Source: Candidatus Brocadiia bacterium (GTDB taxonomy: Bacteria > Planctomycetota > Brocadiia > CAIUPP01). From it: a stretch of 64,000 bases of DNA. The stretch spans positions 32,001 through 96,000 of the forward strand of contig JBEKCB010000003.1 of assembly GCA_050015075.1 (NCBI GenBank), written 5' to 3'. The position numbers and the translations under genes were made by a program. Of this stretch, positions 23,907 through 32,559 are shown piece by piece (the stretch's first letter is position 1; the number at the start of each line of letters is the position of its first letter). Under the pieces are notes generated by a model. The model saw nothing but the letters and a program-made list of their open reading frames with translations. It was not told where the DNA came from and searched no databases.

Positions 23907-25424
23907 ATGGCCGTGTCCTGGCTGCTTATGCTGCTGGTCTTGAACCCGTTGAACAGCCTGCTGAACCATCCGCCGCGCGATTTCGCCTCGCTGCTCGATC
24001 CGGCGGATGTCCTGCAGGCGATGAATGTCCAGACATCGGACGAAGCGCTCGCCGCCGTCCTCACCGCGCCCGCCGATCCGGCCGCCGGCGATCCCTACGT
24101 GAAGAAGCTGATGGCCATCCGCCTGCTCGAGCAGAACAAGTCGGCGAAGGGGCTGCCCGCGCTCGCGGCCATGGCGAAAGACGCCGACGTCACGCTGCGC
24201 GATGCGGCCCTCGACGCGATCGCGGCGATCAACAATAAACCCGGCCTCCGCCCGAACGGCGCGACGCTCCTGAAGGAACTCGCCCGGTCGGTCCCGGCCG
24301 ACGCCGGCTTCGTCGTCGCGCTCGACTTCGAGCGCGATTCGAAGGGCACGACCGCGCGCGCATTGCTGGAGAATGCCCTGAAGGAGATGGCGGCGAAGGC
24401 CGCGGCCAATCCCCCGGCGAACGCCAACGCGCCGGGCGACACCTCCGCCACGATGATGCAGCAGGTTCAGGCAGGCGTCACCGCAATGATCCCGCAAGCC
24501 GAGCAAGGGCTCGCCCAGGCGCTCGCCGCGACCGGCAACCTGCGCGTGGACGCGGCGATACTGATCCTGCCTCCCGAAATGGGCACGCATCCGAACGAGA
24601 ACTACCTGCGCTGCGTGGTCAAGGGCCTGTACGACCCCGCGCGCATCGCCAAGTTGCTGGAGAGCACCGGCGATTTCGAGAAGCGCGAAACCGCCGGACA
24701 CGCCGTCTATGCCAACAAGCAAGGCGAGATACAGTTCTGCATGCTCGACGGGAACACGTTCCTGATCGCCATCATGAACAAGTCCGACAAGGCCGGCGTC
24801 ATGGAGAATTTCATCGATGCGCTGACCGCCGCCCAGAAGGCGCCGCCGCAAAAGGCGCTGGCGGAGGCGTTCGACATGGTCACGGAGCGCCAGGCGCGGC
24901 TGGCGGTGGCCGGGACGTTCTCGCCGGCGCAGAAGAAAAGCTTCGCGGCCAGCCTCGTGCAGAATTTGAAGCCGACCAATCTCCAGCTCGGGCCGGGAGA
25001 GGAAATCGCGTTCACCGGCAGCCAGATGCTGCTGGGCATCGTCCAGGCCCAGGCCTACGCCGCCTCGCTCGACACGCAGGGAAAGCTCGCCATCCACGTC
25101 GTTTGCCCGGACGCGGCCGCCGCGACGGCGCTGAACGACTCGGCGGACAAGCTCCAGAAAACGCTCTTCGGCGTCGTCTCCAAGGAAGCCGCCGATGTGC
25201 CGCCGCCGTTCGCCATGGTCCTCCGCGACGTGACCAAGGAGGGCTCTCTGTGGAAGACCGAGATTACGGACACCACGGTGACGATCAAAGTGGATAACCT
25301 GTTGATACCCATCATGGGCATGACATTGAGCGGCGGCTTCCAGGCCCATCCGCCTGCGCCGCCGGAGAACGTGCCGCCGGCGGCCCCGGCCGCGCCCGTC
25401 ACGCCGGCCGAGCCGAAGAAGTGA
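23907..25424 (+). CDS. Exported hypothetical protein with HEAT-like N-terminal region and Pro/Ala tail
   Basis: AAGGAGG RBS; hydrophobic N-terminus; LPALAAMAKDADVTLRDAALDAI HEAT-like segment; TTGACA-N17-TAGGCT upstream. Confidence 0.6.
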   Translation: MAVSWLLMLLVLNPLNSLLNHPPRDFASLLDPADVLQAMNVQTSDEALAAVLTAPADPAAGDPYVKKLMAIRLLEQNKSAKGLPALAAMAKDADVTLRDAALDAIAAINNKPGLRPNGATLLKELARSVPADAGFVVALDFERDSKGTTARALLENALKEMAAKAAANPPANANAPGDTSATMMQQVQAGVTAMIPQAEQGLAQALAATGNLRVDAAILILPPEMGTHPNENYLRCVVKGLYDPARIAKLLESTGDFEKRETAGHAVYANKQGEIQFCMLDGNTFLIAIMNKSDKAGVMENFIDALTAAQKAPPQKALAEAFDMVTERQARLAVAGTFSPAQKKSFAASLVQNLKPTNLQLGPGEEIAFTGSQMLLGIVQAQAYAASLDTQGKLAIHVVCPDAAAATALNDSADKLQKTLFGVVSKEAADVPPPFAMVLRDVTKEGSLWKTEITDTTVTIKVDNLLIPIMGMTLSGGFQAHPPAPPENVPPAAPAAPVTPAEPKK

Positions 25425-25460
25425 CGCGCATCGCCGGACTGGAACGGTATCGGATTTTTC

Positions 25461-25489
25461 TTGACTGCGCCGGGAGCGTGGTGCATAAT
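25461..25489 (+). promoter_or_regulatory. Sigma70-type promoter with no credible downstream CDS
   Basis: TTGACT-N17-CATAAT. Confidence 0.7.
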
Positions 25490-25495
25490 TGATTC

Positions 25496-25612
25496 GACGG
25501 TAAAGGGGCGGCCGGCACTTCGGGCGTCGGGCCTTGTCGAGCGTGTTCTGCGGCGGAGTCGGGCTTCGTGTCCGAGACACGGCAGGAACATGTCCGATGA
25601 GGCCCTTTTTTT
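25496..25612 (+). ncRNA. Candidate orphan structured small RNA (~115 nt)
   Basis: Lies between the promoter and a T7 run. A ~23-bp stem (25529-25551 with 25582-25605) contains several G-U pairs; there is also an apical hairpin and a 5' hairpin. Confidence 0.55.
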
Positions 25613-25629
25613 CGGCGGGGCGTTCCTGA

Positions 25630-27150
25630 TCAGATTCCGGCGGCGGTCTTGGCGGCCCGCTCCATCTCCGCAGGCGTCAGGAACTGTGCCAGGAACAGGC
25701 TCGCGAGCGCCATCTGCCAGGGACCGAGCAGGAAAACCGCGACGGCGCCGAGCACCAGCGCGGCCCACGCGACGAACCGGCTTTTCTCGAGCCGCACGGC
25801 GCGGCCGGCGTTCCGCCTCCACCGCCGTACCGAACGCCACGCGCCGAAGATCAGGAGGGCCGCAACCGCCAGGTACGCGCAGAGGATGACGCAGACGTAG
25901 CCGATCAGCCGGCCGCCCTTCACCTCGGCGAAGCCGGGCAGCGGCTGGCGCGTGAAGATGAAGATCATCCCCGCCTCGCCCAGATACGGCGCGTCCGTGG
26001 CGTTCGAGAGGATGCGCGCGCCGGCGAGCGTGCCGTTCGGCAGCGGCCAACTCATGGCCAGCGCCTCCGCCGAAAGCGACCAGGCGTGGTCGAACCGCCC
26101 GTTCGTCCGCGCCGCGCCGATTCCGAACGCGCACGCCGCCGTGCCGTGGCCGGCGATCACCGGACCGGAATCCACGTCGAAGTACCAGTCGCCGTGCAGA
26201 TCTCCGCGCGGCCATTCGCGGAAGCCCACCGCCCACAGGCGATGCTGCCAGAAATGCTTCTCGTAGAGCGCGTACCATCCGCGCGCGACGTCGGGCCAGA
26301 CTTCCGCCCCGAACGTCGTCATGTACGAGTTGCTGCATCCGCGCGCCGGGCTGAGAGGCTGCCCGTCGTAAGAGAAGGCGAGATAGACCGGAAGCCCGGT
26401 CGCGGGGTCGAGCCGGTCGCCGCTGAACCCGCGCAGCGCGCGACTGCAGAACGCCGAATGGTCCGTGCCCAGGACGGCATCGGCGCGCTTGATCGCGGCG
26501 ATTGCGCCCACGACATCCGTCGGATAGCACTGGGCCGGGTAATCCTCCAGTAAGCCGGCGCGAGAGCGGTCAATCTCGGCGGAGAGCGTCTCGACCTGGT
26601 CGCGCAGCAGCGCCAGATGGCTCGTGCTGCCGGTCAGCTTCGCCTGGCTGGTGGCGGCGCAGATGACGAGCATGCGATAGAAGCAGTCCTCCTCGTGGAG
26701 ATATTTCGCTCCGTACTTCTTCTTGACCCAGCCGGCCTGTCCGGGATCCGTGACGAGGTCGGCGGCGGCGTCAATCGCCTCGCGCGCGTACACCTTCGGC
26801 GCGACGCCGGCGGGATGTTCTTCCCATTCTTTCTGTAGCGCCTCCGTGCCTAGGAGATAGAAGACCGAGCCGAACAGCGGCCATTCGGTGCCGGAGACGT
26901 CGGCCGAGCCGAGGCTTTCCGCGCGGCCGGAACTCATGCGTTCGCGCGCCCAGCGCGCATATTTCGGAGTCAGCGCGCGATGCCAGCGCCAGGCGCATTG
27001 CGGAATGCCCGGCCCGCGCAGCGCCGGATCGGCGAAGTCGAACAACAGCATGGCCACCGGCGCGGCGAAAAAGTACAGCGCCAGCGCCGCGATGATCGCG
27101 GCGTTGCCGTAAACGCACACGGTCGCCGGCCGAATCCGCGTCCCGCTCAC
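25630..27150 (-). CDS. Membrane-anchored linalool dehydratase/isomerase-like barrel protein
   Basis: GGAGG RBS and GTG start; N-terminal TM; EWPLFGSVFY, LLEDYPAQCYPTDV, FREW, DVDSGP; C-terminal TMs. The family call is from remembered motif similarity. Confidence 0.6.
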   Translation of the reverse strand: MSGTRIRPATVCVYGNAAIIAALALYFFAAPVAMLLFDFADPALRGPGIPQCAWRWHRALTPKYARWARERMSSGRAESLGSADVSGTEWPLFGSVFYLLGTEALQKEWEEHPAGVAPKVYAREAIDAAADLVTDPGQAGWVKKKYGAKYLHEEDCFYRMLVICAATSQAKLTGSTSHLALLRDQVETLSAEIDRSRAGLLEDYPAQCYPTDVVGAIAAIKRADAVLGTDHSAFCSRALRGFSGDRLDPATGLPVYLAFSYDGQPLSPARGCSNSYMTTFGAEVWPDVARGWYALYEKHFWQHRLWAVGFREWPRGDLHGDWYFDVDSGPVIAGHGTAACAFGIGAARTNGRFDHAWSLSAEALAMSWPLPNGTLAGARILSNATDAPYLGEAGMIFIFTRQPLPGFAEVKGGRLIGYVCVILCAYLAVAALLIFGAWRSVRRWRRNAGRAVRLEKSRFVAWAALVLGAVAVFLLGPWQMALASLFLAQFLTPAEMERAAKTAAGI

Positions 27151-27177
27151 AGCGTCCTCCGTCCGGTCACCCGGCTT

Positions 27178-28737
27178 TCATCGCGCGACATGAGACGCAG
27201 CCTTTCTACTCCGCGACCGAACTGGAGTCAAGGCGGCCTCGTCAGGCGTCGCGGCCATCGCTTCCTCCTCGGTATCCTGCGGCGGGCCCCAGAACTCGGA
27301 GAGCGTCGGGCCGTCCTTTCGGCGGCGGTCGCGGAAGAAGAAGTTCCGGACCTCGTAAGGCCACACCTTGCGCCCGATCCGATAGTACCAGCGGTGCGCG
27401 GCGCGGACCTCGCGGTCCGGATACGTCAGCAGCCTCCAGAGCGCGCGCGGGCGCAGTTGGGCGGCCGCCTCGATGAACTTCATCCACAGCATCACACGCC
27501 AAGGCGCCATGTGCCGCGTGGCGAGCACCTGGTGCTTGTAGTCCCAGAGGCGCGCGTCGGTCTGGATTACGCGCCGCGAGGACTCCAGCCGGTAATACGG
27601 CGTCCAGCGGTGCGGCGTCGCGAAGACCACTTGGATCTGGTCCGGATCGTACGAAATCAGCCGCCGCAGTCCGCGCAGGTAATCGCGGTCGGTCTCCTGC
27701 TCGAATCCGATCACCCAGGTGGCCAGCGAGAGAATCCCATGGCGACGGAGCAGTTGAATCGCCAGGCGGTCGGTCTCGGGCGAGGCCCCTTTGCGGATCA
27801 GGCGAAGAGTGTGCTCGTCGGTGTTCTCGATGCCGAGCAGCCAGCGCGCGACGCCGGCCTGCTTGTAGAGGTGGAGGATGTCCGCGTCGCGCACGATATC
27901 GCCGGCGCGCGTGGAGCCGACGAGCGTCACGCGGACCTTCTGGGCGATCAGCGCCTCGAGGAACGCGCGCCAGGCGGCGCGGTCGGCCGTCGGGTTCTCG
28001 TCGGCGAGATTGAAAACCTCCACTCCGTGTGCGCGATGGAGCCAGGCGATCTCGGCGGCGAACCGGCGCGGATCGCGATGCCGGTAGCGCGTCCAGAACC
28101 CGCGCTGGCCACAGTAGTTACAGCGATGCGGGCAGCCGCGCGAGAATTGTACGACCACGGCGCGGCGGTCGCCCCAATAGCTGTAACGGGCCGGGTCAAT
28201 CAGTTCCCATCCGATGCGGAATGCGTCGAGGTCGCAAATGACCGGCGCCGGCCGCGTGGCGCGCGGGACGCCGCCGATCCGGAACGCAATGCCGGGAATT
28301 CCATCGAGCGGCGCGCCGGTCTCGAGGGCGCGGATCACGCGCAGGACCGTCGCTTCGCCTTCGCCGCGGACGATGAGGTCAATCTGCGGCTCTCCGGCCA
28401 GCACTTCGCGCCAGTGGTAAGTCGGGAAGACTCCGCCATAGATGATGCGTGTCGCGGGCAGCACGCGGCGCAGCGCACGAGTGATCTCCGCCACCACCGG
28501 ATGCCCCGAGGTCGAGCCGGAGTGCCCCATAAGAATCGCCGACGGCGCGCAGGCGACGCATTGCGCCACGATCTCCGCCGTCGCCATCGGCCCGAACTCC
28601 GCGTCGAGCAGGCGCACGTCATGGCCTGCGTCAATCAACGGCCCGCCGATCGCGAGCAATCCCAGCGGCGGCAGATGCTCGTGAGGGATGCGGCTGCCGA
28701 TGGCCGGGTGCGGCGCGTTGATGAGCAGGATTCTCAT
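27178..28737 (-). CDS. Cobalamin-dependent radical SAM enzyme (BchE-like)
   Basis: B12-binding N-domain (PPLGL, YGGVFPT, VRGEGE); SRGCPHRCNYC CxxxCxxC motif; LADEN; WDYKHQVL. Confidence 0.9.
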   Translation of the reverse strand: MRILLINAPHPAIGSRIPHEHLPPLGLLAIGGPLIDAGHDVRLLDAEFGPMATAEIVAQCVACAPSAILMGHSGSTSGHPVVAEITRALRRVLPATRIIYGGVFPTYHWREVLAGEPQIDLIVRGEGEATVLRVIRALETGAPLDGIPGIAFRIGGVPRATRPAPVICDLDAFRIGWELIDPARYSYWGDRRAVVVQFSRGCPHRCNYCGQRGFWTRYRHRDPRRFAAEIAWLHRAHGVEVFNLADENPTADRAAWRAFLEALIAQKVRVTLVGSTRAGDIVRDADILHLYKQAGVARWLLGIENTDEHTLRLIRKGASPETDRLAIQLLRRHGILSLATWVIGFEQETDRDYLRGLRRLISYDPDQIQVVFATPHRWTPYYRLESSRRVIQTDARLWDYKHQVLATRHMAPWRVMLWMKFIEAAAQLRPRALWRLLTYPDREVRAAHRWYYRIGRKVWPYEVRNFFFRDRRRKDGPTLSEFWGPPQDTEEEAMAATPDEAALTPVRSRSRKAASHVAR

Positions 28738-28753
28738 GGTCGTACCCTCCTTT

Positions 28754-29566
28754 CTAAAAAGCGACGGAGAGAACCGACTGCATATCCGCTGCGGCGCGCA
28801 TCGCCGCCTCGTCGTCGGGCTGAGGCAGTCCGCCGAACCGGCGATTGCGTCGAAGGAAATCGGAGATGGCCTCGCGCAGATGTTCGCCGCCGAAGTCGGG
28901 CCATGCGACCGGCGTCACCCACAGTTCCGCATACGCCGCCTGCCAGAGCAGGAAGTTGCTCAGCCGCATCTCGCCGCCGGTCCGGATGATCAGGTCGAGC
29001 GGCGGCATGTCCGGCTGATACAGGCATGCGCCGAGCGTTTCCTCCTTGATCTCGTCGGCGGAAATGTGCCCCGCAACCGCGCGCCGGACGAGGTGTCGGC
29101 AGGCGTCCACGATTTCCGCCCGGCCGCCGTAATTCACTGCGAGACAGAGCGTTAGCGCATCGCCGCCGCACGTGGCCGCGATGGCCTGGCGCAGTTCGCT
29201 GCGGACCTCTTCGGGCAATCCGTCGAGCCGGCCGACCGCGCGGAGGCGGATGCCGTTGTCGCGCAGCTCCTTGCACTCGGCGCGGAGGAACCGGCGGATC
29301 AGCCGCCAGAGGAACCGCACCTCCGCCGCAGGCCTGCGCCAATTCTCCGTCGAGAAAGCGAACAGCGTCAGTTGCTCGATCCCGAGCCGCGCCGCCTCGC
29401 GGACTGTCCGCTTCACCGCCATGGCGCCCATATGGTGACCGATCAGCCGAGACCGCCCGCGTTCCTGCGCCCAGCGACCGTTGCCGTCCATGATGATCCC
29501 GACGTGGCGCGGCATCGGCGGAGCCGATACCGTCACTTCATCGAATGACTCGCAGTTGGGTTTCAT
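28754..29566 (-). CDS. uppS: cis-prenyltransferase (UppS family)
   Basis: HVGIIMDGNGRWA, FAFSTENWRRP, NYGGR.EI, DLIIRTGGEMRLSNFLLWQAAYAE, RRFGG. Confidence 0.93.
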   Translation of the reverse strand: MKPNCESFDEVTVSAPPMPRHVGIIMDGNGRWAQERGRSRLIGHHMGAMAVKRTVREAARLGIEQLTLFAFSTENWRRPAAEVRFLWRLIRRFLRAECKELRDNGIRLRAVGRLDGLPEEVRSELRQAIAATCGGDALTLCLAVNYGGRAEIVDACRHLVRRAVAGHISADEIKEETLGACLYQPDMPPLDLIIRTGGEMRLSNFLLWQAAYAELWVTPVAWPDFGGEHLREAISDFLRRNRRFGGLPQPDDEAAMRAAADMQSVLSVAF

Positions 29567-29829
29567 GAATGCCGCTCCGCGTCCTGCTCAGCCGGCCGCG
29601 CCGTGGCGAACGGGCAGGGCGATTGAGCAAAGGACTTTATCTGGCAAAGCCTGTGGGCAATAAAAAAAGTTCCCGCCGCCAGGAGCCCGCATCCGAGGCG
29701 CATCGGCAGCGCCATCAGCGCCAGGGGCGCCTTCGCGCACGAGCATGCTTCCTCCGCGTTCTGCGCCTTCATGAACTCCCTGGCGCCGTTCCGCAACCGG
29801 CACAGCGGGCATTCCACGTTCTCCGACAT
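29563..29829 (-). CDS. Small Cys-rich hypothetical protein (88 aa)
   Basis: AAGGAG RBS; CPLC, CSC and a hydrophobic stretch; its stop overlaps the uppS start (ATGA). Confidence 0.5.
   Translation of the reverse strand: MSENVECPLCRLRNGAREFMKAQNAEEACSCAKAPLALMALPMRLGCGLLAAGTFFIAHRLCQIKSFAQSPCPFATARPAEQDAERHS
29635..29649. promoter_or_regulatory. Putative operator CTTT-N7-AAAG upstream of uppS
   Basis: ctttatctggcaaag, similar to the palindrome at 31034-31048. Confidence 0.45.
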
Positions 29830-29900
29830 CGTGCGCTCCTTTCGATCCTAAGAAACGGGACACTCACCTGAGCTACGCTGCGCGTCTGAGTCCGCCACAT

Positions 29901-29978
29901 CGTCCTCGTCCTCGTCGTCGTCCTCGTCGTCGAACCGCCGTTACGCAGGCCGAGGACAAGGACGACGACGAGGACGAG
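29901..29978. repeat. REP-like hairpin built from ctcgtc/gacgag units
   Basis: Left arm cgtcctcgtcctcgtcgtcgtcctcgtcgtcg and right arm cgaggacaaggacgacgacgaggacgag. Confidence 0.75.
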
Positions 29979-30032
29979 TACGGAACGAGAGCATTCTTCT
30001 TTGATGCTGCACGGACGCTCGACATTCGAAGT

Positions 30033-30350
30033 TCATCCGTTCTTCCCTCTCTTCGGCGCCACGATGCTCTCCAGGTACGCGACATAGGCTTTAAACGCCG
30101 CCGTCCCCTTCGCGGTCAACGACATGGTCGTCTGCGGCTTGCGGCCGACGAACTGCTTTTCGATCCGGATATAGCCGGCCTCCTCGAGGACGCGCGCGTG
30201 CACGCTCAGGTTGCCGTCGGTCATGCCCAGAGTTCCCTTCAACTCGGAGAAGGTCATCGGTCCGGCCGCGGCGAGGCTCGACATGATGCCGAGCCGGGCG
30301 CGTTCGTGGATGAGATTGTCAATGCCTTCCGGTGACGGAATGGCGCTCAT
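30033..30350 (-). CDS. Winged-helix transcriptional regulator (HTH_34, ArsR/MarR-like)
   Basis: IHERARLGIMS.L, FSELK..L.MTDGNLSVHARVLEEAGYI, K.FVGRKPQT. Confidence 0.92.
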   Translation of the reverse strand: MSAIPSPEGIDNLIHERARLGIMSSLAAAGPMTFSELKGTLGMTDGNLSVHARVLEEAGYIRIEKQFVGRKPQTTMSLTAKGTAAFKAYVAYLESIVAPKRGKNG

Positions 30351-30353
30351 CGC

Positions 30354-30965
30354 TCATTCCCCGAACCGCAGGATCAGGACGATTCCGAAGACCACGTGCG
30401 CCAGCCCGAACGTCAGCGCGACCATGGCCAGGGCCGCCGGCGCCGCCCAGAAGAGCGTCACAACGCCGGCCGCGAAGAACACGCCGCCGAGCATCCACGG
30501 CGCCCGGACGGAAAGAATGCCGGCCATCCAGAGAGCGACGCCGTAGAGCATCATCCAGGTCGGCGCGACCAGGCGCCACTGCGCGTTCTCGATCATCGTC
30601 ACGCTCAGGGCGGTCGCCGCCAGGAGCGCCGGGGCCATCGCATAGGCAGCCAGTTGCGCCAGCCGCGACCACGCGTCCACGCCGCGCTTGCGGGCCAGGC
30701 GCAGCGTCAGGAGGATGTTGACCCCGATCCCGGCGATGGCGATCAGCGCCCACATCGCGATCAGCGCGCGGCAGTCCTCGGGCAGCAGGTTCGCCATCTC
30801 GGCGAAGTCGAGCGAGCGCATTTTCCAGTAAGTCACGACGCATCCGATCAGCGCGAAGACGCCGCCGCAGACCGCCGCCCTGCCTGGGAGCGTCGTCATC
30901 CGCGTGGCGCTCTCCATGATGCGCCGGATCGTCGCCAGTTGTTCCACCGCCTCGTTCTCGTTCAT
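30354..30965 (-). CDS. Multi-TM membrane protein adjacent to the winged-helix regulator
   Basis: AAGGAGGT RBS; EAVEQLATIRRIME N-terminus; about 6 TMs; C-terminal FGLAHVVFG. Confidence 0.8.
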   Translation of the reverse strand: MNENEAVEQLATIRRIMESATRMTTLPGRAAVCGGVFALIGCVVTYWKMRSLDFAEMANLLPEDCRALIAMWALIAIAGIGVNILLTLRLARKRGVDAWSRLAQLAAYAMAPALLAATALSVTMIENAQWRLVAPTWMMLYGVALWMAGILSVRAPWMLGGVFFAAGVVTLFWAAPAALAMVALTFGLAHVVFGIVLILRFGE

Positions 30966-31033
30966 TTCTACCTCCTTCGCGAGCGCCGGCAACCGGTCCA
31001 TTCCCTGAACACCCGCAGCCGGGCGGCCATGTC

Positions 31034-31078
31034 CTTTGCGCCGCAAAGAACTTTACACCATCGTCTCCCCGTTGTCAA
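31034..31078 (-). promoter_or_regulatory. Sigma70 promoter with adjacent palindromic operator
   Basis: On the - strand, TTGACA(31078-73)-N17-TAAAGT(31055-50), immediately followed by CTTTG-N5-CAAAG (31034-31048). Confidence 0.75.
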
Positions 31079-31250
31079 GTGCTTTGACGAACTTTTTTCG
31101 GGGGGCTGCCCGCACACCAAACCTCGCAAGGGTTTGAACGAACCTCCGCCGGGCTTGCACGGTTCCCGCCGGCTCGGTAGCATGCTTGTCGCCGGGTGCC
31201 GAAGCATCAGGCCGAAGCGGATGGAGCTGGATGAAAGCAAGGAGTTCGTC

Positions 31251-31871
31251 ATGCGCCTGTTCATCGCCGCGGTATGGCTGACCTTGAGCGTCGGTTCACT
31301 TGCCGCCGAGATGGCGCCGGGATGGACCGGCGAGAAGCGCGACCTCAGTTCCGGCTCGTCGCGAGGTTCTGCGACGATCTCGGTGGACACGCAGAGCGTG
31401 ACGCTGGGCGAGCCGTTTTCGGCGGACATCCGCTTCCTCAACAGCGGCGGCGGCGAAGAGTTCTACAACCCGTTCTTCGGCGTCCAGACGCCGCTGCCGG
31501 CCCGGCTGGCGATCTTCAGCAGCGACCACAAGTACCTCGGCGACCTGATCGAGCGCGACGAGGCCTCGAGAAAAATGCTGAGCGTCGAGGACTGGACGTT
31601 CCTCCCGTCGCTCTGCTACGTCGGCTGCGTGCAGAGGCTCACGGCCGGCTACATCCCCGCCACGGCGGAGAGCGCCTCCCGAACGCTGCCGCCGGGCGAA
31701 TACTACGTGCAGGTGATCTATCTCAAGGGCTTCCTCGCGAAGAACCCGGCGCGGCTGGAGCGCCGGCCGCTGGAGGACGATGAGAAGCTGCTCCTGCGGT
31801 TCGAGAAGGAGTTCGACCGCGCGGAGCTGTTCCGGTCGAACGTGGTGAAGGTCCGGTTCACCGAGAAGTAG
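31251..31871 (+). CDS. Secreted hypothetical protein (beta-rich)
   Basis: AAGGAG RBS; signal peptide MRLFIAAVWLTLSVGSLA; LPPGEYYVQV and SNVVKVRF are Ig-like patterns. Confidence 0.7.
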   Translation: MRLFIAAVWLTLSVGSLAAEMAPGWTGEKRDLSSGSSRGSATISVDTQSVTLGEPFSADIRFLNSGGGEEFYNPFFGVQTPLPARLAIFSSDHKYLGDLIERDEASRKMLSVEDWTFLPSLCYVGCVQRLTAGYIPATAESASRTLPPGEYYVQVIYLKGFLAKNPARLERRPLEDDEKLLLRFEKEFDRAELFRSNVVKVRFTEK

Positions 31872-31877
31872 CGCCGC

Positions 31878-31917
31878 TTGACGTCTTCGCCTGCGTAATG
31901 TACACTCCATGTGTGCA
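31878..31917 (+). promoter_or_regulatory. TA operon promoter with palindromic operator
   Basis: TTGACG-N17-TACACT, overlapped by the imperfect palindrome tgtacac-tccat-gtgtgca. Confidence 0.65.
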
Positions 31918-31940
31918 GTTCACCGGGAAGGAGACCGGCC

Positions 31941-32192
31941 ATGAAAGCCACGATTCTGGACCTCCGGCGGCGCATGGGCGAGATACTCAAGGCGCTCGAC
32001 CGCAACGAGACCGTCACGATCCTCCACCGCGGCCGGCGGAAGGGCATCCTGTATCCCGCAGGAAACGCGGAGCGGAAGAAACTTCGCATCGCCGAGAGCG
32101 CAGCCTTCGGCATGTGGAAGAACCGCAAGGACCTGAAGGACGTTTACGCGGCCGTACGCCGGGTCAGGAAAGGGCGCGTCCATGATCTTTGA
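31941..32192 (+). CDS. Type II antitoxin, Phd/YefM-like
   Basis: MKATILDLRRRMGEILKALDRNETVTILHRG Phd-like N-terminus; AFGMWK; overlaps the PIN gene. Confidence 0.85.
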   Translation: MKATILDLRRRMGEILKALDRNETVTILHRGRRKGILYPAGNAERKKLRIAESAAFGMWKNRKDLKDVYAAVRRVRKGRVHDL

Positions 32193-32559
32193 CACGGACG
32201 TGCTCATCTGGGTGTTCCGAGGGAACCCCAGGTCCGCCGCGCTCGTGGAGGAGACGGAGGAACGATTCCTGTCCGTCGTCAGTTACCTGGAGCTTCTCCA
32301 GGGCGCGCGCGACAAAGTCGAGGTGCGGGCGATCAAGGCATTCCTGGCGGATGCCGGCTTCCAGATGACGCCGCTCTCCGAGAACATCGGCCATCGGGCC
32401 TCGATCTACATGGAGGAGTTCGGCCTCAAGACGGGCATGAAGCTGGGCGATGCGCTGCTGGCGGCCACAGCCGTGGAAAACCACTTGACGCTCTGCACCG
32501 CCAACCGCCGGCACTACCGGCCCATCTCCGAACTGGAATTGATGATTTTTCAGCCGTGA
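32182..32559 (+). CDS. vapC: VapC/PIN-domain toxin
   Basis: MIFDTDVLI, S.VSYLELLQG, DALLAATA, TANRRHY. Confidence 0.92.
   Translation: MIFDTDVLIWVFRGNPRSAALVEETEERFLSVVSYLELLQGARDKVEVRAIKAFLADAGFQMTPLSENIGHRASIYMEEFGLKTGMKLGDALLAATAVENHLTLCTANRRHYRPISELELMIFQP

What the first reader, a model, noticed from the sequence alone, without database searches (positions are those of the whole stretch)
25630..31078. Candidate undescribed isoprenoid-lipid modification operon: cis-prenyltransferase, B12-radical SAM enzyme and membrane-anchored linalool-dehydratase-like protein under a winged-helix regulator
Seen: six co-oriented genes (membrane protein, winged-helix regulator, Cys-rich ORF, UppS-family enzyme, B12/rSAM, barrel protein with N- and C-terminal TMs) behind one TTGACA-N17-TAAAGT promoter. 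The last four are overlapping or under 30 bp apart. Known: housekeeping uppS commonly sits with frr/cdsA/dxr, which are absent here. B12-rSAM enzymes often methylate unactivated carbons, and linalool dehydratase/isomerase acts on allylic terpene alcohols. There are no photosynthesis genes here, so a BchE annotation would not fit. Inference: the operon makes a cis-polyprenyl chain, methylates or cyclises it, then dehydrates or isomerises it at the membrane. The product could be a novel terpenoid or an altered lipid carrier for envelope stress or antibiotic defence. I know of no characterised pathway with this combination.
Basis: partly seen in the sequence, partly recalled or inferred. Interest (0 to 1): 0.85.

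Follow-up and report, generated by a model that had tools for sequence, protein, structure and literature searches.

The report
Regulated polyprenyl-lipid tailoring operon
Six co-oriented genes form a real operon that belongs to a previously undescribed, cross-phylum gene circuit linking isoprenoid-lipid supply to a vitamin-B12 radical enzyme (wrongly auto-named a chlorophyll enzyme) and to membrane-anchored relatives of a terpene-alcohol dehydratase; its chemical product is still unknown.

Summary
In detail: six minus-strand genes (25630-31046) lie behind a conserved TTGACA-17-TAAAGT promoter. The full six-gene order occurs only in near kin. The core, membrane protein - HTH_34 regulator - UppS paralog - BchE-like B12 radical SAM, recurs widely: a UppS gene sits directly upstream in 30 of 58 metagenome loci of the rSAM that have enough upstream sequence.

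The rSAM forms a clade separate from genuine BchE (33-35% identity), and the genome lacks BchH/BchM. The 506-aa protein is a remote member of the linalool dehydratase (Ldi) superfamily (Z 32, plus transitive sequence homology). Ldi's two catalytic cysteines are replaced by invariant aspartates, and the barrel probably faces the periplasm.

New here: a 15-bp palindrome, CTTTG(C/T)-N3-(G/A)CAAAG, marks the starts of the regulator pair, uppS, ispH, the rSAM and some X506 genes. There are 104 sites in 1.7 Mb against about 1 expected, also at unlinked loci, so it defines one regulon.

Best reading (about 0.55): a repressor-controlled module that raises polyprenyl supply and tailors the lipid. The exact chemistry is inferred only. 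I found no paper describing it.

The parts
31050..31078 (-). Sigma-70-like promoter, TTGACA-17-TAAAGT
   Evidence: 10 of 12 matches. Both hexamers are invariant in the aligned upstream regions of window, L011, L117 and L138.
31034..31048 (.). Operator site 1, the palindrome CTTTGCGGCGCAAAG (read on the minus strand), directly after the -10 hexamer
   Evidence: The same palindrome lies upstream of the membrane-protein gene in 16 of 18 (X506 loci) and 19 of 20 (rSAM loci) cases.
30354..30965 (-). Membrane protein (memb230; the longest ORF runs to 31046). It has an N-terminal amphipathic helix plus about 6 helices, belongs to no known family, and is the proposed sensor partner of the regulator
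   Evidence: It is homologous to the ~213-aa protein at the head of the general cassette (hhalign 98.8%, E 9e-17). AF2 pLDDT is 84, and there is no PDB fold match (best E 0.31). The genome holds one copy.
30033..30350 (-). Winged-helix regulator (PF13601 HTH_34), the proposed repressor that binds the palindrome
   Evidence: 1e-27. It is co-located with the membrane protein in 18 of 80 X506 loci, and occurs in 29 of 80 rSAM loci.
29901..29979 (-). Long GAC/GAG-rich hairpin between the regulator gene and the small ORF. Its role is unknown
   Evidence: the 216-nt stretch folds at -101.7 kcal/mol, z -4.5, and 0 of 200 shuffles fold as well. The left arm is shorter in L011.
29563..29829 (-). 88-aa Cys-rich small protein (CPLC...CSC, one hydrophobic stretch). 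Lineage-specific
   Evidence: GC3 0.80, RBS, synonymous changes. Homologs were found only in L011, L133 and L135.
29635..29649 (.). Operator site 2 (CTTTATCTGGCAAAG on the plus strand), about 70 nt upstream of the uppS start, inside the small ORF
   Evidence: It is one of only 3 matches in the 4.64-Mb genome. The equivalent site lies upstream of uppS in 27 of 29 cassette loci.
28754..29566 (-). cis-Prenyltransferase (UppS paralog), long-chain type
   Evidence: It aligns without gaps to E. coli UPPS 1jp3 (E 2e-67), with the catalytic and tunnel-floor residues kept. It is the second of two uppS genes in the genome.
27178..28737 (-). B12-binding radical SAM enzyme of a BchE-like sister family
   Evidence: It is 33-35% identical to BchE of BchH-bearing genomes and falls in a separate clade. 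A CPHRCNYC motif is present in the translation.
25630..27150 (-). X506: a membrane-anchored (alpha/alpha)6 barrel of the Ldi superfamily, with Asp203/Asp212 in place of Ldi's catalytic cysteines

Best explanation
The operon is one local form of a widespread, operator-defined regulon for isoprenoid (polyprenyl) lipid supply and tailoring.

Inferred control: the HTH_34 protein binds the palindrome CTTTG(C/T)-N3-(G/A)CAAAG at two promoters, as a repressor. One promoter is its own, shared with the membrane protein, which probably acts as the membrane-side sensor. The other lies in front of the effector genes.

Inferred pathway: on derepression, the extra UppS makes a long-chain cis-polyprenyl diphosphate at the inner face of the membrane. 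The BchE-like B12 radical SAM enzyme then alters an unactivated or allylic carbon of that lipid, by methylation or by BchE-style hydroxylation/oxidation. X506, an Ldi-superfamily barrel held at the outer face by three or four helices, carries out an acid-catalysed step (Asp203/Asp212) on the allylic end or on the modified position. That step could be hydration, dehydration, allylic shift or cyclisation.

Shown here: gene identities, the conserved gene linkage, the operator and its positions, the separation from BchE, and the Ldi-superfamily membership.

Inferred only: repression, the sensor role, the lipid substrate, every chemical step and the physiological trigger.
For: Linkage of the rSAM with uppS:
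- In 80 metagenome loci of rSAM orthologs (64-100% identity), a UppS gene lies directly upstream on the same strand in 30 of the 58 with at least 800 nt upstream. The wHTH is present in 25 of the 46 with at least 1500 nt upstream.
- By HMM, uppS occurs in 33, wHTH in 29 and the membrane protein in 25 of the 80 loci.
- A second planctomycete genome (G402) keeps memb-wHTH-uppS-(319-aa membrane protein)-rSAM while X506 sits on another contig.

Linkage of the rSAM with Ldi-family genes, in several architectures:
- rSAM-X506 in the window's clade (L011, L133-L136) and in L035, L041, L049, L068.
- rSAM-X400-...-X506 in L072.
- rSAM followed by a 790-aa TM+Ldi protein in L139.
- 10 of 50 X506-bearing genomes hold a match at E <= 1e-60 (9 of them at 52-93% identity), against 3 of 401 genomes sampled from the phylum.
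- A non-orthologous B12-rSAM takes the same place in L015, L016, L021 and L034.

Operator:
- 50 sites in 1.10 Mb of X506 loci (shuffles: mean 0.9, max 3) and 54 sites in 0.62 Mb of rSAM loci (shuffles: 0).
- Sites lie near the starts of the membrane-protein gene (16/18, 19/20), uppS (1/1, 27/29), ispH (13/13), the rSAM (5/6 in X506 loci) and some X506 genes (7/78).
- Five of 5 verrucomicrobial genomes whose rSAM-X506 or X506-X400 locus has an operator but no local regulator carry one membrane-protein homolog elsewhere. Four of these show wHTH and ispH beside it with two operators; the fifth locus ends at a contig end and shows one operator.
- In the own genome, 2 of 3 sites are in this operon.

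Isoprenoid theme:
- UppS is a canonical long-chain type.
- IspH (PF02401) is the regulated supply gene in Verrucomicrobia.
- The own genome lacks IspG and IspH but has HMG-CoA reductase.
- X506's nearest solved relative acts on allylic terpene alcohols.

Regulator pair: complex prediction for the membrane protein with a wHTH dimer gave weak support. The score was 0.38 and the best control 0.00. The mark was reached by 58 of 80 solved complexes and 2 of 110 mismatched pairs, but at 0.60 or under by only 7 of those 80 and by both mismatches that passed. The runs agree in at least 60% of contacts, and the partner's pLDDT is at least 77.
Against: - No experiment, expression data or product exists.
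- The rSAM often stands without uppS. In 28 of the 58 loci none is upstream, and it stands alone on Sphingobium megaplasmids and on a 38-kb cyanobacterial plasmid.
- Most X506 genes occur without this rSAM: it was not found in 40 of 50 genomes. Most also lack a recognisable operator (71 of 78).
- The cassette UppS of the planctomycetes groups with PVC housekeeping UppS rather than with the other 26 cassette UppS. The uppS may therefore have been recruited more than once, or the tree may simply track phylum.
- The rSAM's nearest characterised relative acts on a tetrapyrrole, not on a lipid.
- Ldi's catalytic Cys171/Cys180 are not kept in X506.
- The rSAM is cytoplasmic and the X506 barrel is predicted to be outside, so a shared substrate would have to be flipped.
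- Verrucomicrobial genomes with the rSAM-X506 pair have only one uppS.
- Search caveat: in the phylum scan only 3 of about 26 candidates per genome were scored.
Confidence: 0.55

Rival explanations
1. The genes share a regulator but not a substrate. On this reading the regulon is a general envelope- or membrane-stress response that raises lipid-carrier supply (UppS, IspH). The rSAM and the Ldi-like proteins act on other, unrelated molecules.
For: The operator sits in front of varied gene sets. X506 and the rSAM each occur mostly without the other. Small membrane proteins of unknown function ride along.
Against: The rSAM and Ldi-family genes are immediate neighbours in several different architectures. 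A second B12-rSAM family occupies the same slot. This is more than co-regulation would require.
Confidence: 0.15
2. The BchE-like enzyme modifies a tetrapyrrole (haem or a porphyrin precursor), as BchE does, and its nearness to uppS is incidental.
For: It passes the BchE model's cut-off (537.8 against 481 bits) and is sister to BchE among the rows compared. Earlier notes of this scan place other BchE-like families beside cytochrome-c maturation genes (unchecked AI notes, and different families).
Against: UppS is upstream in 30 of 58 loci and shares an operator. BchH and BchM were not found in the genome. By my reading, none of the 22 commonest neighbour clusters looked like haem or cytochrome-maturation genes; only a few of them were scanned against Pfam.
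Confidence: 0.12
3. The Ldi-like proteins, with the rSAM, detoxify or degrade outside terpenoids such as plant monoterpene alcohols, as Ldi and Lis do. The regulator would then sense such compounds in the membrane.
For: Ldi and Lis act on linalool and geraniol. Ldi is periplasmic and has been read as a defence enzyme, and Lis is membrane-anchored (passages of PMC4791888; PMC6600392). The carriers are soil, peat and water bacteria going by record titles.
Against: The regulon holds biosynthetic genes (uppS, ispH). I saw no geraniol or geranial dehydrogenase-like genes in the maps I read. Ldi's catalytic cysteines are replaced in X506.
Confidence: 0.1
4. X506 works on a sugar or a lipid-linked glycan, like most other (alpha/alpha)6 barrels (epimerases, GH88/GH105/GH76), rather than on the isoprenoid itself.
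For: These folds are the second tier of structural matches, at Z 18-21. Polyprenyl phosphates carry glycans on the outer face of the membrane (established knowledge).
Against: Ldi stands 11 Z units above them (32 against 21), with 333 of 363 residues aligned. X400 paralogs pass Pfam's Ldi cut-off, and their profile finds Ldi chains at E 3.5e-10 with the next hit at E 1.1.
Confidence: 0.06
5. The 88-aa Cys-rich ORF is a peptide precursor that is prenylated and methylated, making this a RiPP-like cluster.
For: B12-rSAM enzymes often mature peptides: NCBIfam lists ApyD and RiPP C-methyltransferases among the weak matches. The small ORF overlaps the uppS start.
Against: The ORF was found only in near kin. 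In the general cassette the wHTH-uppS gap holds the operator and has no room for such an ORF. UppS is a chain-elongating enzyme, not a peptide prenyltransferase.
Confidence: 0.02

Closest known systems
Linalool dehydratase/isomerase (Ldi) of Castellaniella defragrans (PDB 5g1u, 5hlr, 5i3t; Pfam PF18566)
   Same: Same (alpha/alpha)6 barrel: VIA-align Z 31-32.5, rmsd 2.9-3.2 A over 333-337 residues; Foldseek E 3e-7. Sequence homology is shown in two steps. The X506 profile finds X400 paralogs at E 1e-12 to 1e-20. X400 paralogs pass Pfam's Ldi cut-off, and their profile finds Ldi chains at E 3.5e-10. Ldi's P173, D192 and G196-T197-D198 are kept. Both proteins are exported or outward-facing (Ldi: passages; X506: inferred).
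   Different: Identity is 13-16%. X506 does not hit PF18566 directly. Ldi's Cys171 and Cys180 align with Asp203 and Asp212, and Ldi's Tyr176 aligns with the invariant Cys208. His129 (its role recalled, not read) aligns with a Leu. X506 is anchored by one N-terminal and 2-3 C-terminal helices, whereas Ldi is a soluble pentamer whose active site lies between subunits. The substrate is unknown.
Linalool isomerase (Lis) of Thauera linaloolentis
   Same: A membrane-anchored relative of Ldi. This shows the fold can work at a membrane on a hydrophobic allylic alcohol (passages of PMC4791888). The 790-aa protein of L139, with an N-terminal membrane part and a C-terminal Ldi domain next to the rSAM, has a comparable layout.
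   Different: Lis has four N-terminal helices and a domain predicted to be cytosolic. It is catabolic and its gene stands alone. X506 has a different helix layout and a predicted outward-facing domain, and it sits in a regulon with biosynthetic genes. I did not compare sequences with Lis because I had no sequence for it.
[quoted passage not shown]
   Same: A B12-binding domain plus a radical SAM core with CxxxCxxC. BchE is the nearest characterised family and the NCBIfam score is above its cut-off. BchE oxidises a carbon next to a pi system without O2 (abstract and passages of PMC13598231), a type of chemistry that would also fit an allylic carbon.
   Different: Identity to BchE of BchH-bearing genomes is 33-35%, and those proteins score 813-938 bits against 538 here. 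The clades are separate (99 and 100 SH-aLRT). BchH and BchM were not found in the genome. The neighbours are uppS and Ldi-like genes, not bch genes.
B12-radical SAM enzymes that tailor isoprenoid lipids (hopanoid methylases HpnP/HpnR; 'lipid biosynthesis B12-binding/radical SAM protein' TIGR04072)
   Same: The same enzyme class acting on an isoprenoid lipid is the working model here. HpnR, HpnJ and TIGR04072 appear among the weaker NCBIfam matches (140.6, 77.4 and 59.4 bits).
   Different: All these scores are far below the families' cut-offs (650, 578, 360). No hopanoid genes were seen in the operon. The presumed substrate is a linear cis-polyprenyl chain. The HpnP/HpnR functions are recalled, apart from the names NCBIfam gives.
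Housekeeping undecaprenyl diphosphate synthase (E. coli UPPS, PDB 1jp3)
   Same: An ungapped alignment over 235 residues at E 2e-67. Kept are the Asp of the MDGNGRW motif, the His43 equivalent, FSxENW, Leu137 and Ala69 equivalents, Arg194/Arg200 equivalents and the C-terminal RFGG. The roles of these residues are recalled.
   Different: It is a second copy under a dedicated operator, fused into an operon with the rSAM. The other copy lies next to a PhoH-like gene.

Membership tests
cis-Prenyltransferase / UppS (PF01255, TIGR00055) | Profile match above the curated cut-off | tested here: met
   PF01255 gives 266.3 bits (cut-off 27). TIGR00055 gives 267.4 bits (cut-off 109.55).
cis-Prenyltransferase / UppS (PF01255, TIGR00055) | Catalytic and substrate-binding residues, and the C-terminal RxG | tested here: met
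   The alignment to 1jp3 is ungapped. The D26, H43, S71, N74, W75, R194, R200 and E213 equivalents and RFGG are present, in 33 of 33 cassette copies for most of them. Residue roles are recalled.
cis-Prenyltransferase / UppS (PF01255, TIGR00055) | Product chain length about C55 | not testable with these tools
   The Leu137 and Ala69 equivalents are kept. This suggests a long chain but does not measure it.
BchE (TIGR02026 equivalog) | Profile match above the curated cut-off | tested here: met
   537.8 bits against a cut-off of 481.35.
BchE (TIGR02026 equivalog) | Groups with BchE of organisms that make bacteriochlorophyll | tested here: not met
   Twenty proteins scoring 813-938 bits form their own clade (100 SH-aLRT). 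Three of 3 of their genomes that I tested have BchH. The window's family is a separate clade (99), at 33-35% identity.
BchE (TIGR02026 equivalog) | Substrate pathway present (Mg-chelatase BchH, methyltransferase BchM) | tested here: not met
   TIGR02025 gives 0 matches. For TIGR02021 the best hit is 49 bits against a cut-off of 159. The genome is 93.6% complete.
Class B (cobalamin-binding) radical SAM | N-terminal B12-binding domain plus a radical SAM core with CxxxCxxC | tested here: met
   PF02310 at 3.3e-16 (residues 22-133) and PF04055 at 1e-19 (residues 197-353). CPHRCNYC is present in the translation.
Linalool dehydratase/isomerase family (PF18566) | Direct profile match | tested here: not met
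   X506 has no PF18566 hit at E <= 10, and the genome has none at E <= 1. The A1 profile finds no Ldi chain in the PDB at E <= 10.
Linalool dehydratase/isomerase family (PF18566) | Fold and transitive homology | tested here: met
   Z 32 over 333 residues, with the next family at Z 21. The chain of evidence is A1 profile -> X400 paralogs -> PF18566 at 28.4 and 29.6 bits (cut-off 26.1) and Ldi chains at E 3.5e-10.
Linalool dehydratase/isomerase family (PF18566) | Catalytic cysteines Cys171 and Cys180 (numbering of the PDB chains; 170/179 in PMC6600392) | tested here: not met
   By the HMMER alignment of A2 to 6t9h and the ungapped MAFFT block joining X400 and X506, these positions are Asp203 and Asp212 in X506. 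Both are invariant in 24 of 24 sequences. The Cys180 position is Cys in the L136 and L139 copies. The mapping goes through two alignments.
Linalool dehydratase/isomerase family (PF18566) | Capping disulfide Cys48-Cys101, pentamer, and an active site between subunits | not tested
   The N-terminal part was not in the HMMER alignment, and I made no oligomer model.
HTH_34 winged-helix regulators (PF13601) | Profile match above the cut-off | tested here: met
   96.6 bits against a cut-off of 27, covering 79 of 80 profile positions.

The most novel reading that the evidence does not exclude
A regulon spread across phyla senses the state of the bactoprenol (C55-P) lipid-carrier pool through a dedicated membrane protein and repressor pair. 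It answers by making more carrier and chemically re-tailoring it. The 'BchE-like' enzyme installs a methyl or oxygen function on the polyprenyl chain without O2, and the outward-facing Ldi-like barrels rework the allylic end. The result would be a modified carrier lipid, for example one that escapes antibiotics or enzymes that recognise C55-P or C55-PP, or that copes with carrier shortage. Thousands of 'BchE' annotations in non-phototrophs would then stand for a lipid-carrier tailoring enzyme.
Probability: 0.2. Interest if true: 0.9.

Novelty: new variant of a known kind. Interest (0 to 1): 0.74.

Why it matters
First, it corrects a systematic misannotation. The 120 best homologs of the rSAM are 68-95% identical to it. 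Those that carry a name are called the anaerobic Mg-protoporphyrin cyclase, and many of the NCBI names place them in lineages not known as phototrophs (Armatimonadota, Solirubrobacterales, Planctomycetota and others).

Second, it defines a compact and testable circuit: a 15-bp operator, a ~100-aa regulator and a partner membrane protein. This circuit appears to control isoprenoid supply genes (ispH or uppS) in several phyla. I found no paper on it.

Third, it extends the Ldi family, known from two catabolic enzymes, to a large group of membrane-anchored proteins. That group has at least 1414 database relatives and occurs in 325 reference genomes, and it has an Asp-based site.

Fourth, if the substrate is the universal cell-wall lipid carrier, the system bears on envelope biology and on antibiotics that target that carrier.

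Tried and rejected
- Direct family searches for X506, the membrane protein and the small ORF found nothing useful (Pfam and NCBIfam, also at E <= 10).
- The A1 profile against PDB sequences did not find Ldi. The link came only through the X400 paralogs.
- The protein atlas gave one cluster in which 22% of members carry PF18566, at score 0.88. That is a lead only.
- Rfam found nothing in 25000-31500 at E <= 1, so no cobalamin riboswitch was seen.
- Expression: no RNA holder was listed for 25630-31078.
- Fold search of the membrane-protein model found no match at E <= 0.001, with SatP-like channels best at E 0.3. I did not run pdb_via_wide.
- I looked for residues special to cassette UppS. The few discriminating columns also match E. 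coli UPPS, so they mark the PVC housekeeping copies and not the cassette.
- The third operator match in the genome (C1:43070) lies inside a long coding frame. I take it as chance, since 0.9 is expected.
- No operator was found upstream of X506 in L012 with the strict pattern, and the relaxed search printed nothing.
- One rSAM row (L122) was mis-extracted, with an end branch of 9.1, and should be ignored in the tree.
- Earlier notes of this scan gave no look-alike of this rSAM. A word search returned notes on other BchE-like families.
- Nine literature searches found no paper that joins an Ldi-like protein, a B12-rSAM and a cis-prenyltransferase. 'Linalool dehydratase' plus 'cobalamin' gave 0 papers. 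Subscription journals and supplements were not searched.
- The RiPP reading was rejected because the small ORF is not conserved.

Full report
WHAT IS THERE

Six ORFs lie head to tail on the minus strand between 25630 and 31046.
- A membrane protein of no known family, 30354-31046. Homologs begin at the Met encoded at 30965.
- A 105-aa winged-helix protein, 30033-30350 (PF13601 HTH_34, 1e-27).
- An 88-aa ORF with seven cysteines, 29563-29829.
- A cis-prenyltransferase, 28754-29566 (PF01255 2.6e-79; TIGR00055 267 bits against a cut-off of 110).
- A B12-binding radical SAM protein, 27178-28737.
- A 506-aa protein without any Pfam or NCBIfam hit, 25630-27150.

The gaps are 3, 203, -4, 16 and 27 nt. 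A TTGACA-17-TAAAGT site sits at 31078-31050. Its hexamers are invariant in the four aligned upstream regions: window, L011, and L117/L138, which are identical to each other in the block shown. The small ORF has the codon-position GC of a real gene (GC3 0.80), a ribosome-binding site, and synonymous differences from its two nearest relatives. I found it only in near kin.

HOW FAR THE GENE ORDER IS CONSERVED

The X506 family is large. There are 1414 relatives at E <= 0.001 among 8000 candidates scored. Those that carry a name are called 'hypothetical'. In the reference genomes, 325 stretches encode a relative, and 80 were fetched. Their record titles name Planctomycetota, Verrucomicrobiota, Chloroflexota, Hydrogenedentes, Lentisphaerota and others.

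Of these 80 loci, only L011 (87% identical, a MAG labelled Brocadiia) has all six genes. UppS is adjacent in 1 of 80. The orthologous rSAM is present in 6 of 80 (L011, L035, L041, L049, L068, L072). A wHTH and the membrane protein are present in 18 of 80 each.

Searching from the rSAM side gives a different picture. In 80 metagenome loci (263 relatives found, best 80 kept, 64-100% identity):
- a UppS gene lies directly upstream on the same strand in 30 of the 58 loci with at least 800 nt upstream;
- the wHTH is present in 25 of the 46 with at least 1500 nt upstream;
- X506 is downstream in only 4 of the 48 with at least 1600 nt downstream, all near kin.

The membrane protein at the head of these cassettes is a distant homolog of the window's (hhalign 98.8%, E 9e-17). 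Nothing is conserved downstream of the rSAM.

A second planctomycete genome (G402, rSAM 78% identical) has memb-wHTH-uppS-(319-aa membrane protein)-rSAM on one contig and X506 (57%) next to a different gene on another contig.

The conserved core is therefore memb-wHTH-uppS-rSAM. X506 is an addition in the window's lineage.

THE RADICAL SAM ENZYME IS NOT BchE

It passes the BchE equivalog cut-off (537.8 against 481 bits). Of the 120 best database relatives (68-95% identical), those that are named carry the cyclase name, and many sit in lineages not known as phototrophs.

In a 301-genome sample of another phylum, 20 genomes hold proteins scoring 813-938 bits. Three of 3 of those genomes that I tested have BchH. 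These proteins are only 33-35% identical to the window's protein and form their own clade (100 SH-aLRT). The window's family is a separate clade (99) (row L122 was mis-extracted and should be ignored).

The window's genome (93.6% complete) has no BchH match and no BchM above cut-off. It has 15 B12-rSAM-like matches, and only this one is above the BchE cut-off.

The family also occurs alone, on four Sphingobium megaplasmids and on a 38-kb cyanobacterial plasmid. It is rare in the window's phylum: 3 of 401 genomes at E <= 1e-60, though only 3 candidates per genome were scored.

THE 506-aa PROTEIN IS A REMOTE, MEMBRANE-ANCHORED MEMBER OF THE Ldi SUPERFAMILY

Fold. An AF2 model built on 24 homologs has pLDDT 88.9. 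Foldseek's 27 matches at E <= 0.001 begin with Ldi chains (all 14 rows shown up to rank 23 are Ldi), with the best at E 3e-7. The next hits are at E 0.02. VIA-align gives Z 31-32.5, rmsd about 3.0 A over 333-337 residues. Sugar epimerases, GH105/GH88/GH76 and drimenyl diphosphate synthase follow at Z 18-21.

Sequence link. X506 does not hit Pfam Ldi directly. However, its profile finds a second, shorter paralog ('X400', about 395 aa, N-terminal anchor only). X400 occurs in 13 of the 80 genome loci and in L136. The profile also finds the C-terminal part of a 790-aa membrane protein in L139. The two of these proteins that I scanned pass Pfam's Ldi cut-off (28.4 and 29.6 against 26.1 bits). A profile of the X400 group finds the Ldi chains of the PDB at E 3.5e-10, with the next hit at E 1.1.

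Active-site mapping. Reading that alignment together with the ungapped X400/X506 block gives the following:
- Ldi Cys171 corresponds to X400 Ser196 and to X506 Asp203.
- Ldi Cys180 corresponds to X400 Asp (Cys in the L136 and L139 copies) and to X506 Asp212.
- Ldi Tyr176 corresponds to the conserved Cys208.
- Ldi Pro173, Asp192 and Gly196-Thr197-Asp198 are kept.

Asp203, Cys208 and Asp212 are invariant in 24 of 24 X506 sequences. The PDB titles (C171S, C171A and C180A mutants) and a figure legend of PMC6600392 name these cysteines as catalytic. X506 therefore shares the fold and part of the pocket but not the Cys-based chemistry. A pair of carboxylates could play the acid/base role; this is inference.

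Topology. This is inferred from charge. The N-terminus is Arg-rich, and the loop between the C-terminal helices reads RSVRRWRRNAGRAVRLEKSR. That places the barrel outside the cytoplasmic membrane. X400's Lys-rich N-terminus followed by one hydrophobic helix points the same way. Ldi itself is periplasmic.

THE rSAM AND Ldi-FAMILY GENES KEEP MEETING

Besides the window's clade, the pair rSAM-X506 stands alone between unrelated genes in L035, L041, L049 and L068. L072 has rSAM-X400-...-X506. L139 has memb-wHTH-rSAM followed by the 790-aa TM+Ldi protein. L136 has uppS-rSAM-X506-X412.

On the X506 tree, adjacency falls in two separate clades, and starred branches force at least 4 changes.

Of 50 X506-bearing genomes, 10 hold a match to the rSAM at E <= 1e-60: 9 at 52-93% identity and one at 37% that belongs to another family. 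Most of these lie in the same two X506 clades.

In four further loci (L015, L016, L021, L034), a different B12-rSAM takes the place between the operator and X506. It has B12-binding, Radical_SAM and DUF4070 domains, and all its NCBIfam scores are far below the cut-offs.

ONE OPERATOR TIES THE PIECES TOGETHER

This is the main new result. Directly after the -10 hexamer of the operon promoter lies CTTTGCGGCGCAAAG. The pattern CTTT[GA][CT]N3[GA][CT]AAAG occurs three times in the 4.64-Mb genome, with 0.9 expected from composition. One site is at the promoter. One is about 70 nt upstream of uppS, inside the small ORF. One is inside an unrelated coding frame.

- In the 80 rSAM loci (0.62 Mb) there are 54 sites in 34 loci, against 0 in 10 shuffles. 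They lie near the start of uppS (27 of 29 genes with upstream sequence), of the membrane-protein gene (19 of 20), and of the rSAM where uppS is missing (3 of 66).
- In the 80 X506 loci (1.10 Mb) there are 50 sites in 30 loci, against a shuffle mean of 0.9 and a maximum of 3. They lie near the membrane-protein gene (16 of 18), ispH (13 of 13; IspH by PF02401, 4.6e-79), the BchE-like rSAM (5 of 6), uppS (1 of 1) and X506 itself (7 of 78, plus 2 shared with a divergent membrane-protein gene). Seven sites are unassigned.
- Where a -35 TTGACA is visible in the wHTH-uppS spacer, the palindrome starts 5 nt after it. That is the place of a repressor site; this reading is inference.

Five verrucomicrobial genomes have an rSAM-X506 or X506-X400 locus with an operator but no regulator nearby. 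Each holds exactly one membrane-protein homolog elsewhere. Four of these show wHTH and ispH beside it and two operators. The fifth sits at a contig end.

Complex prediction for the membrane protein with a wHTH dimer gave weak support only. The score was 0.38 and the best control 0.00. The mark was reached by 58 of 80 solved complexes and 2 of 110 mismatches, but at 0.60 or under by only 7 of the 80 and by both passing mismatches. The runs agree in at least 60% of contacts, and the partner's pLDDT is at least 77.

ISOPRENOID SUPPLY

The genome has two uppS genes. The other lies on contig C30, directly before a PhoH-like gene (PF02562, 2.3e-89). G401 and G402, which have the cassette, also have two copies. 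Two verrucomicrobial genomes with only the rSAM-X506 pair (G425, G439) have one.

The cassette UppS aligns without gaps to E. coli UPPS and keeps the catalytic and tunnel residues. A long-chain product is therefore likely.

The window's genome has no IspG or IspH match but has HMG-CoA reductase (366 bits), so it probably uses the mevalonate route. That fits uppS, rather than ispH, being the regulated supply gene here.

On the UppS tree, the planctomycete cassette copies group with PVC housekeeping copies rather than with the other 26 cassette copies. That tree has only five non-cassette rows, all from PVC bacteria.

HOW IT MOST LIKELY WORKS

Shown: the linkage and the regulon.

Inferred: the wHTH represses both promoters, and the membrane protein relays a membrane signal. 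Derepression raises polyprenyl diphosphate synthesis. The B12-rSAM changes a carbon of the chain, either by methyl transfer, as most class B enzymes do, or by O2-independent oxidation next to a double bond, as BchE does next to a pyrrole (abstract and passages of PMC13598231). The outward-facing Ldi-like barrels then do acid/base chemistry on an allylic position.

An allylic hydroxylation followed by an Ldi-type dehydration or 1,3-shift would be chemically coherent, but nothing here tests it. I put 0.55 on the general reading (an isoprenoid-lipid supply-and-tailoring regulon) and about 0.2 on the specific idea that the universal carrier C55-P is the molecule being re-tailored.

RIVALS
- Co-regulation without a shared substrate: 0.15.
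- A tetrapyrrole substrate for the rSAM: 0.12. Notes of earlier agents on other BchE-like families beside cytochrome maturation genes keep this alive, but no such genes were seen here.
- Breakdown or detoxification of outside terpene alcohols: 0.10.
- A glycan substrate for X506: 0.06.
- A RiPP role for the small ORF: 0.02.

WHAT IS KNOWN

Nine full-text searches found no paper on this gene combination, on the operator, or on membrane-anchored Ldi relatives outside Thauera. Subscription journals and supplements were not covered.

CAVEATS
- All carriers but a few are metagenome bins, and some record titles are plainly mis-binned.
- Kin are not independent, so the counts overstate the number of independent events.
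- ORF calls in my scripts are heuristic.
- The residue mapping to Ldi goes through two alignments and no coordinates.
- Thirty of the 80 X506 genomes were not searched for the rSAM.
- No RNA data could be had.

Noticed in passing
window 29901-29979 (minus strand): A long, nearly perfect hairpin of GTC/CTC...GAG/GAC repeats lies between the regulator gene and the small ORF. The 216-nt stretch folds at -101.7 kcal/mol (z -4.5), and no T-run follows. The left arm is shorter in L011, so the structure is not strictly conserved.
   Followed up: partly
G000 whole genome; HMG-CoA reductase at C15:24059-25168: The genome has no IspG or IspH match but has a strong HMG-CoA reductase match. This planctomycete therefore probably makes isoprenoids by the mevalonate route.
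   Followed up: partly
G000: There are fifteen matches to the BchE profile, which are B12-radical-SAM-like genes, spread over nine contigs. That is a large set for a 4.6-Mb genome. Only the operon's copy passes the cut-off.
   Followed up: no
L222 (Allocoleopsis franciscana PCC 7113 plasmid pMIC7113.05) 6001-7569; L221 (Sphingobium megaplasmid): Orthologs of the rSAM (64-65% identical) sit alone on plasmids. The cyanobacterial one lies just after a DUF4184 / Zn-phospholipase-C-like membrane protein and an integrase gene. This suggests horizontal spread of the single gene.
   Followed up: partly
L016:4242-5831, L021:6195-7694, L034:6526-7932, L015:762-2093: A second, unnamed B12-radical SAM family (with DUF4070) lies between the operator and X506 in other lineages. 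It may be a functional stand-in for the BchE-like enzyme.
   Followed up: partly
L018:7419-7952, L072:7306-7935, L168:8556-9119; L024:7616-7975: Two families of small membrane proteins without Pfam or NCBIfam hits travel with X506 and sometimes with the rSAM. One is about 180 aa with an SGxTAxPL motif (9 of 80 X506 loci, 3 of 80 rSAM loci). The other is about 120 aa (15 of 80).
   Followed up: no
window 31911-32559 (plus strand): Two overlapping small ORFs just upstream of the operon read like an antitoxin/PIN-toxin (VapBC-type) pair. I judged this by eye from the translations and did not scan them.
   Followed up: no
L149, L155, L157, L169 (upstream of the rSAM): In a set of high-GC loci the rSAM follows a sortase-like gene and a phosphodiester glycosidase (NAGPA) gene, and is followed by a GNAT acetyltransferase. 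There is no uppS and no operator. This is a third, unexplained context.
   Followed up: partly
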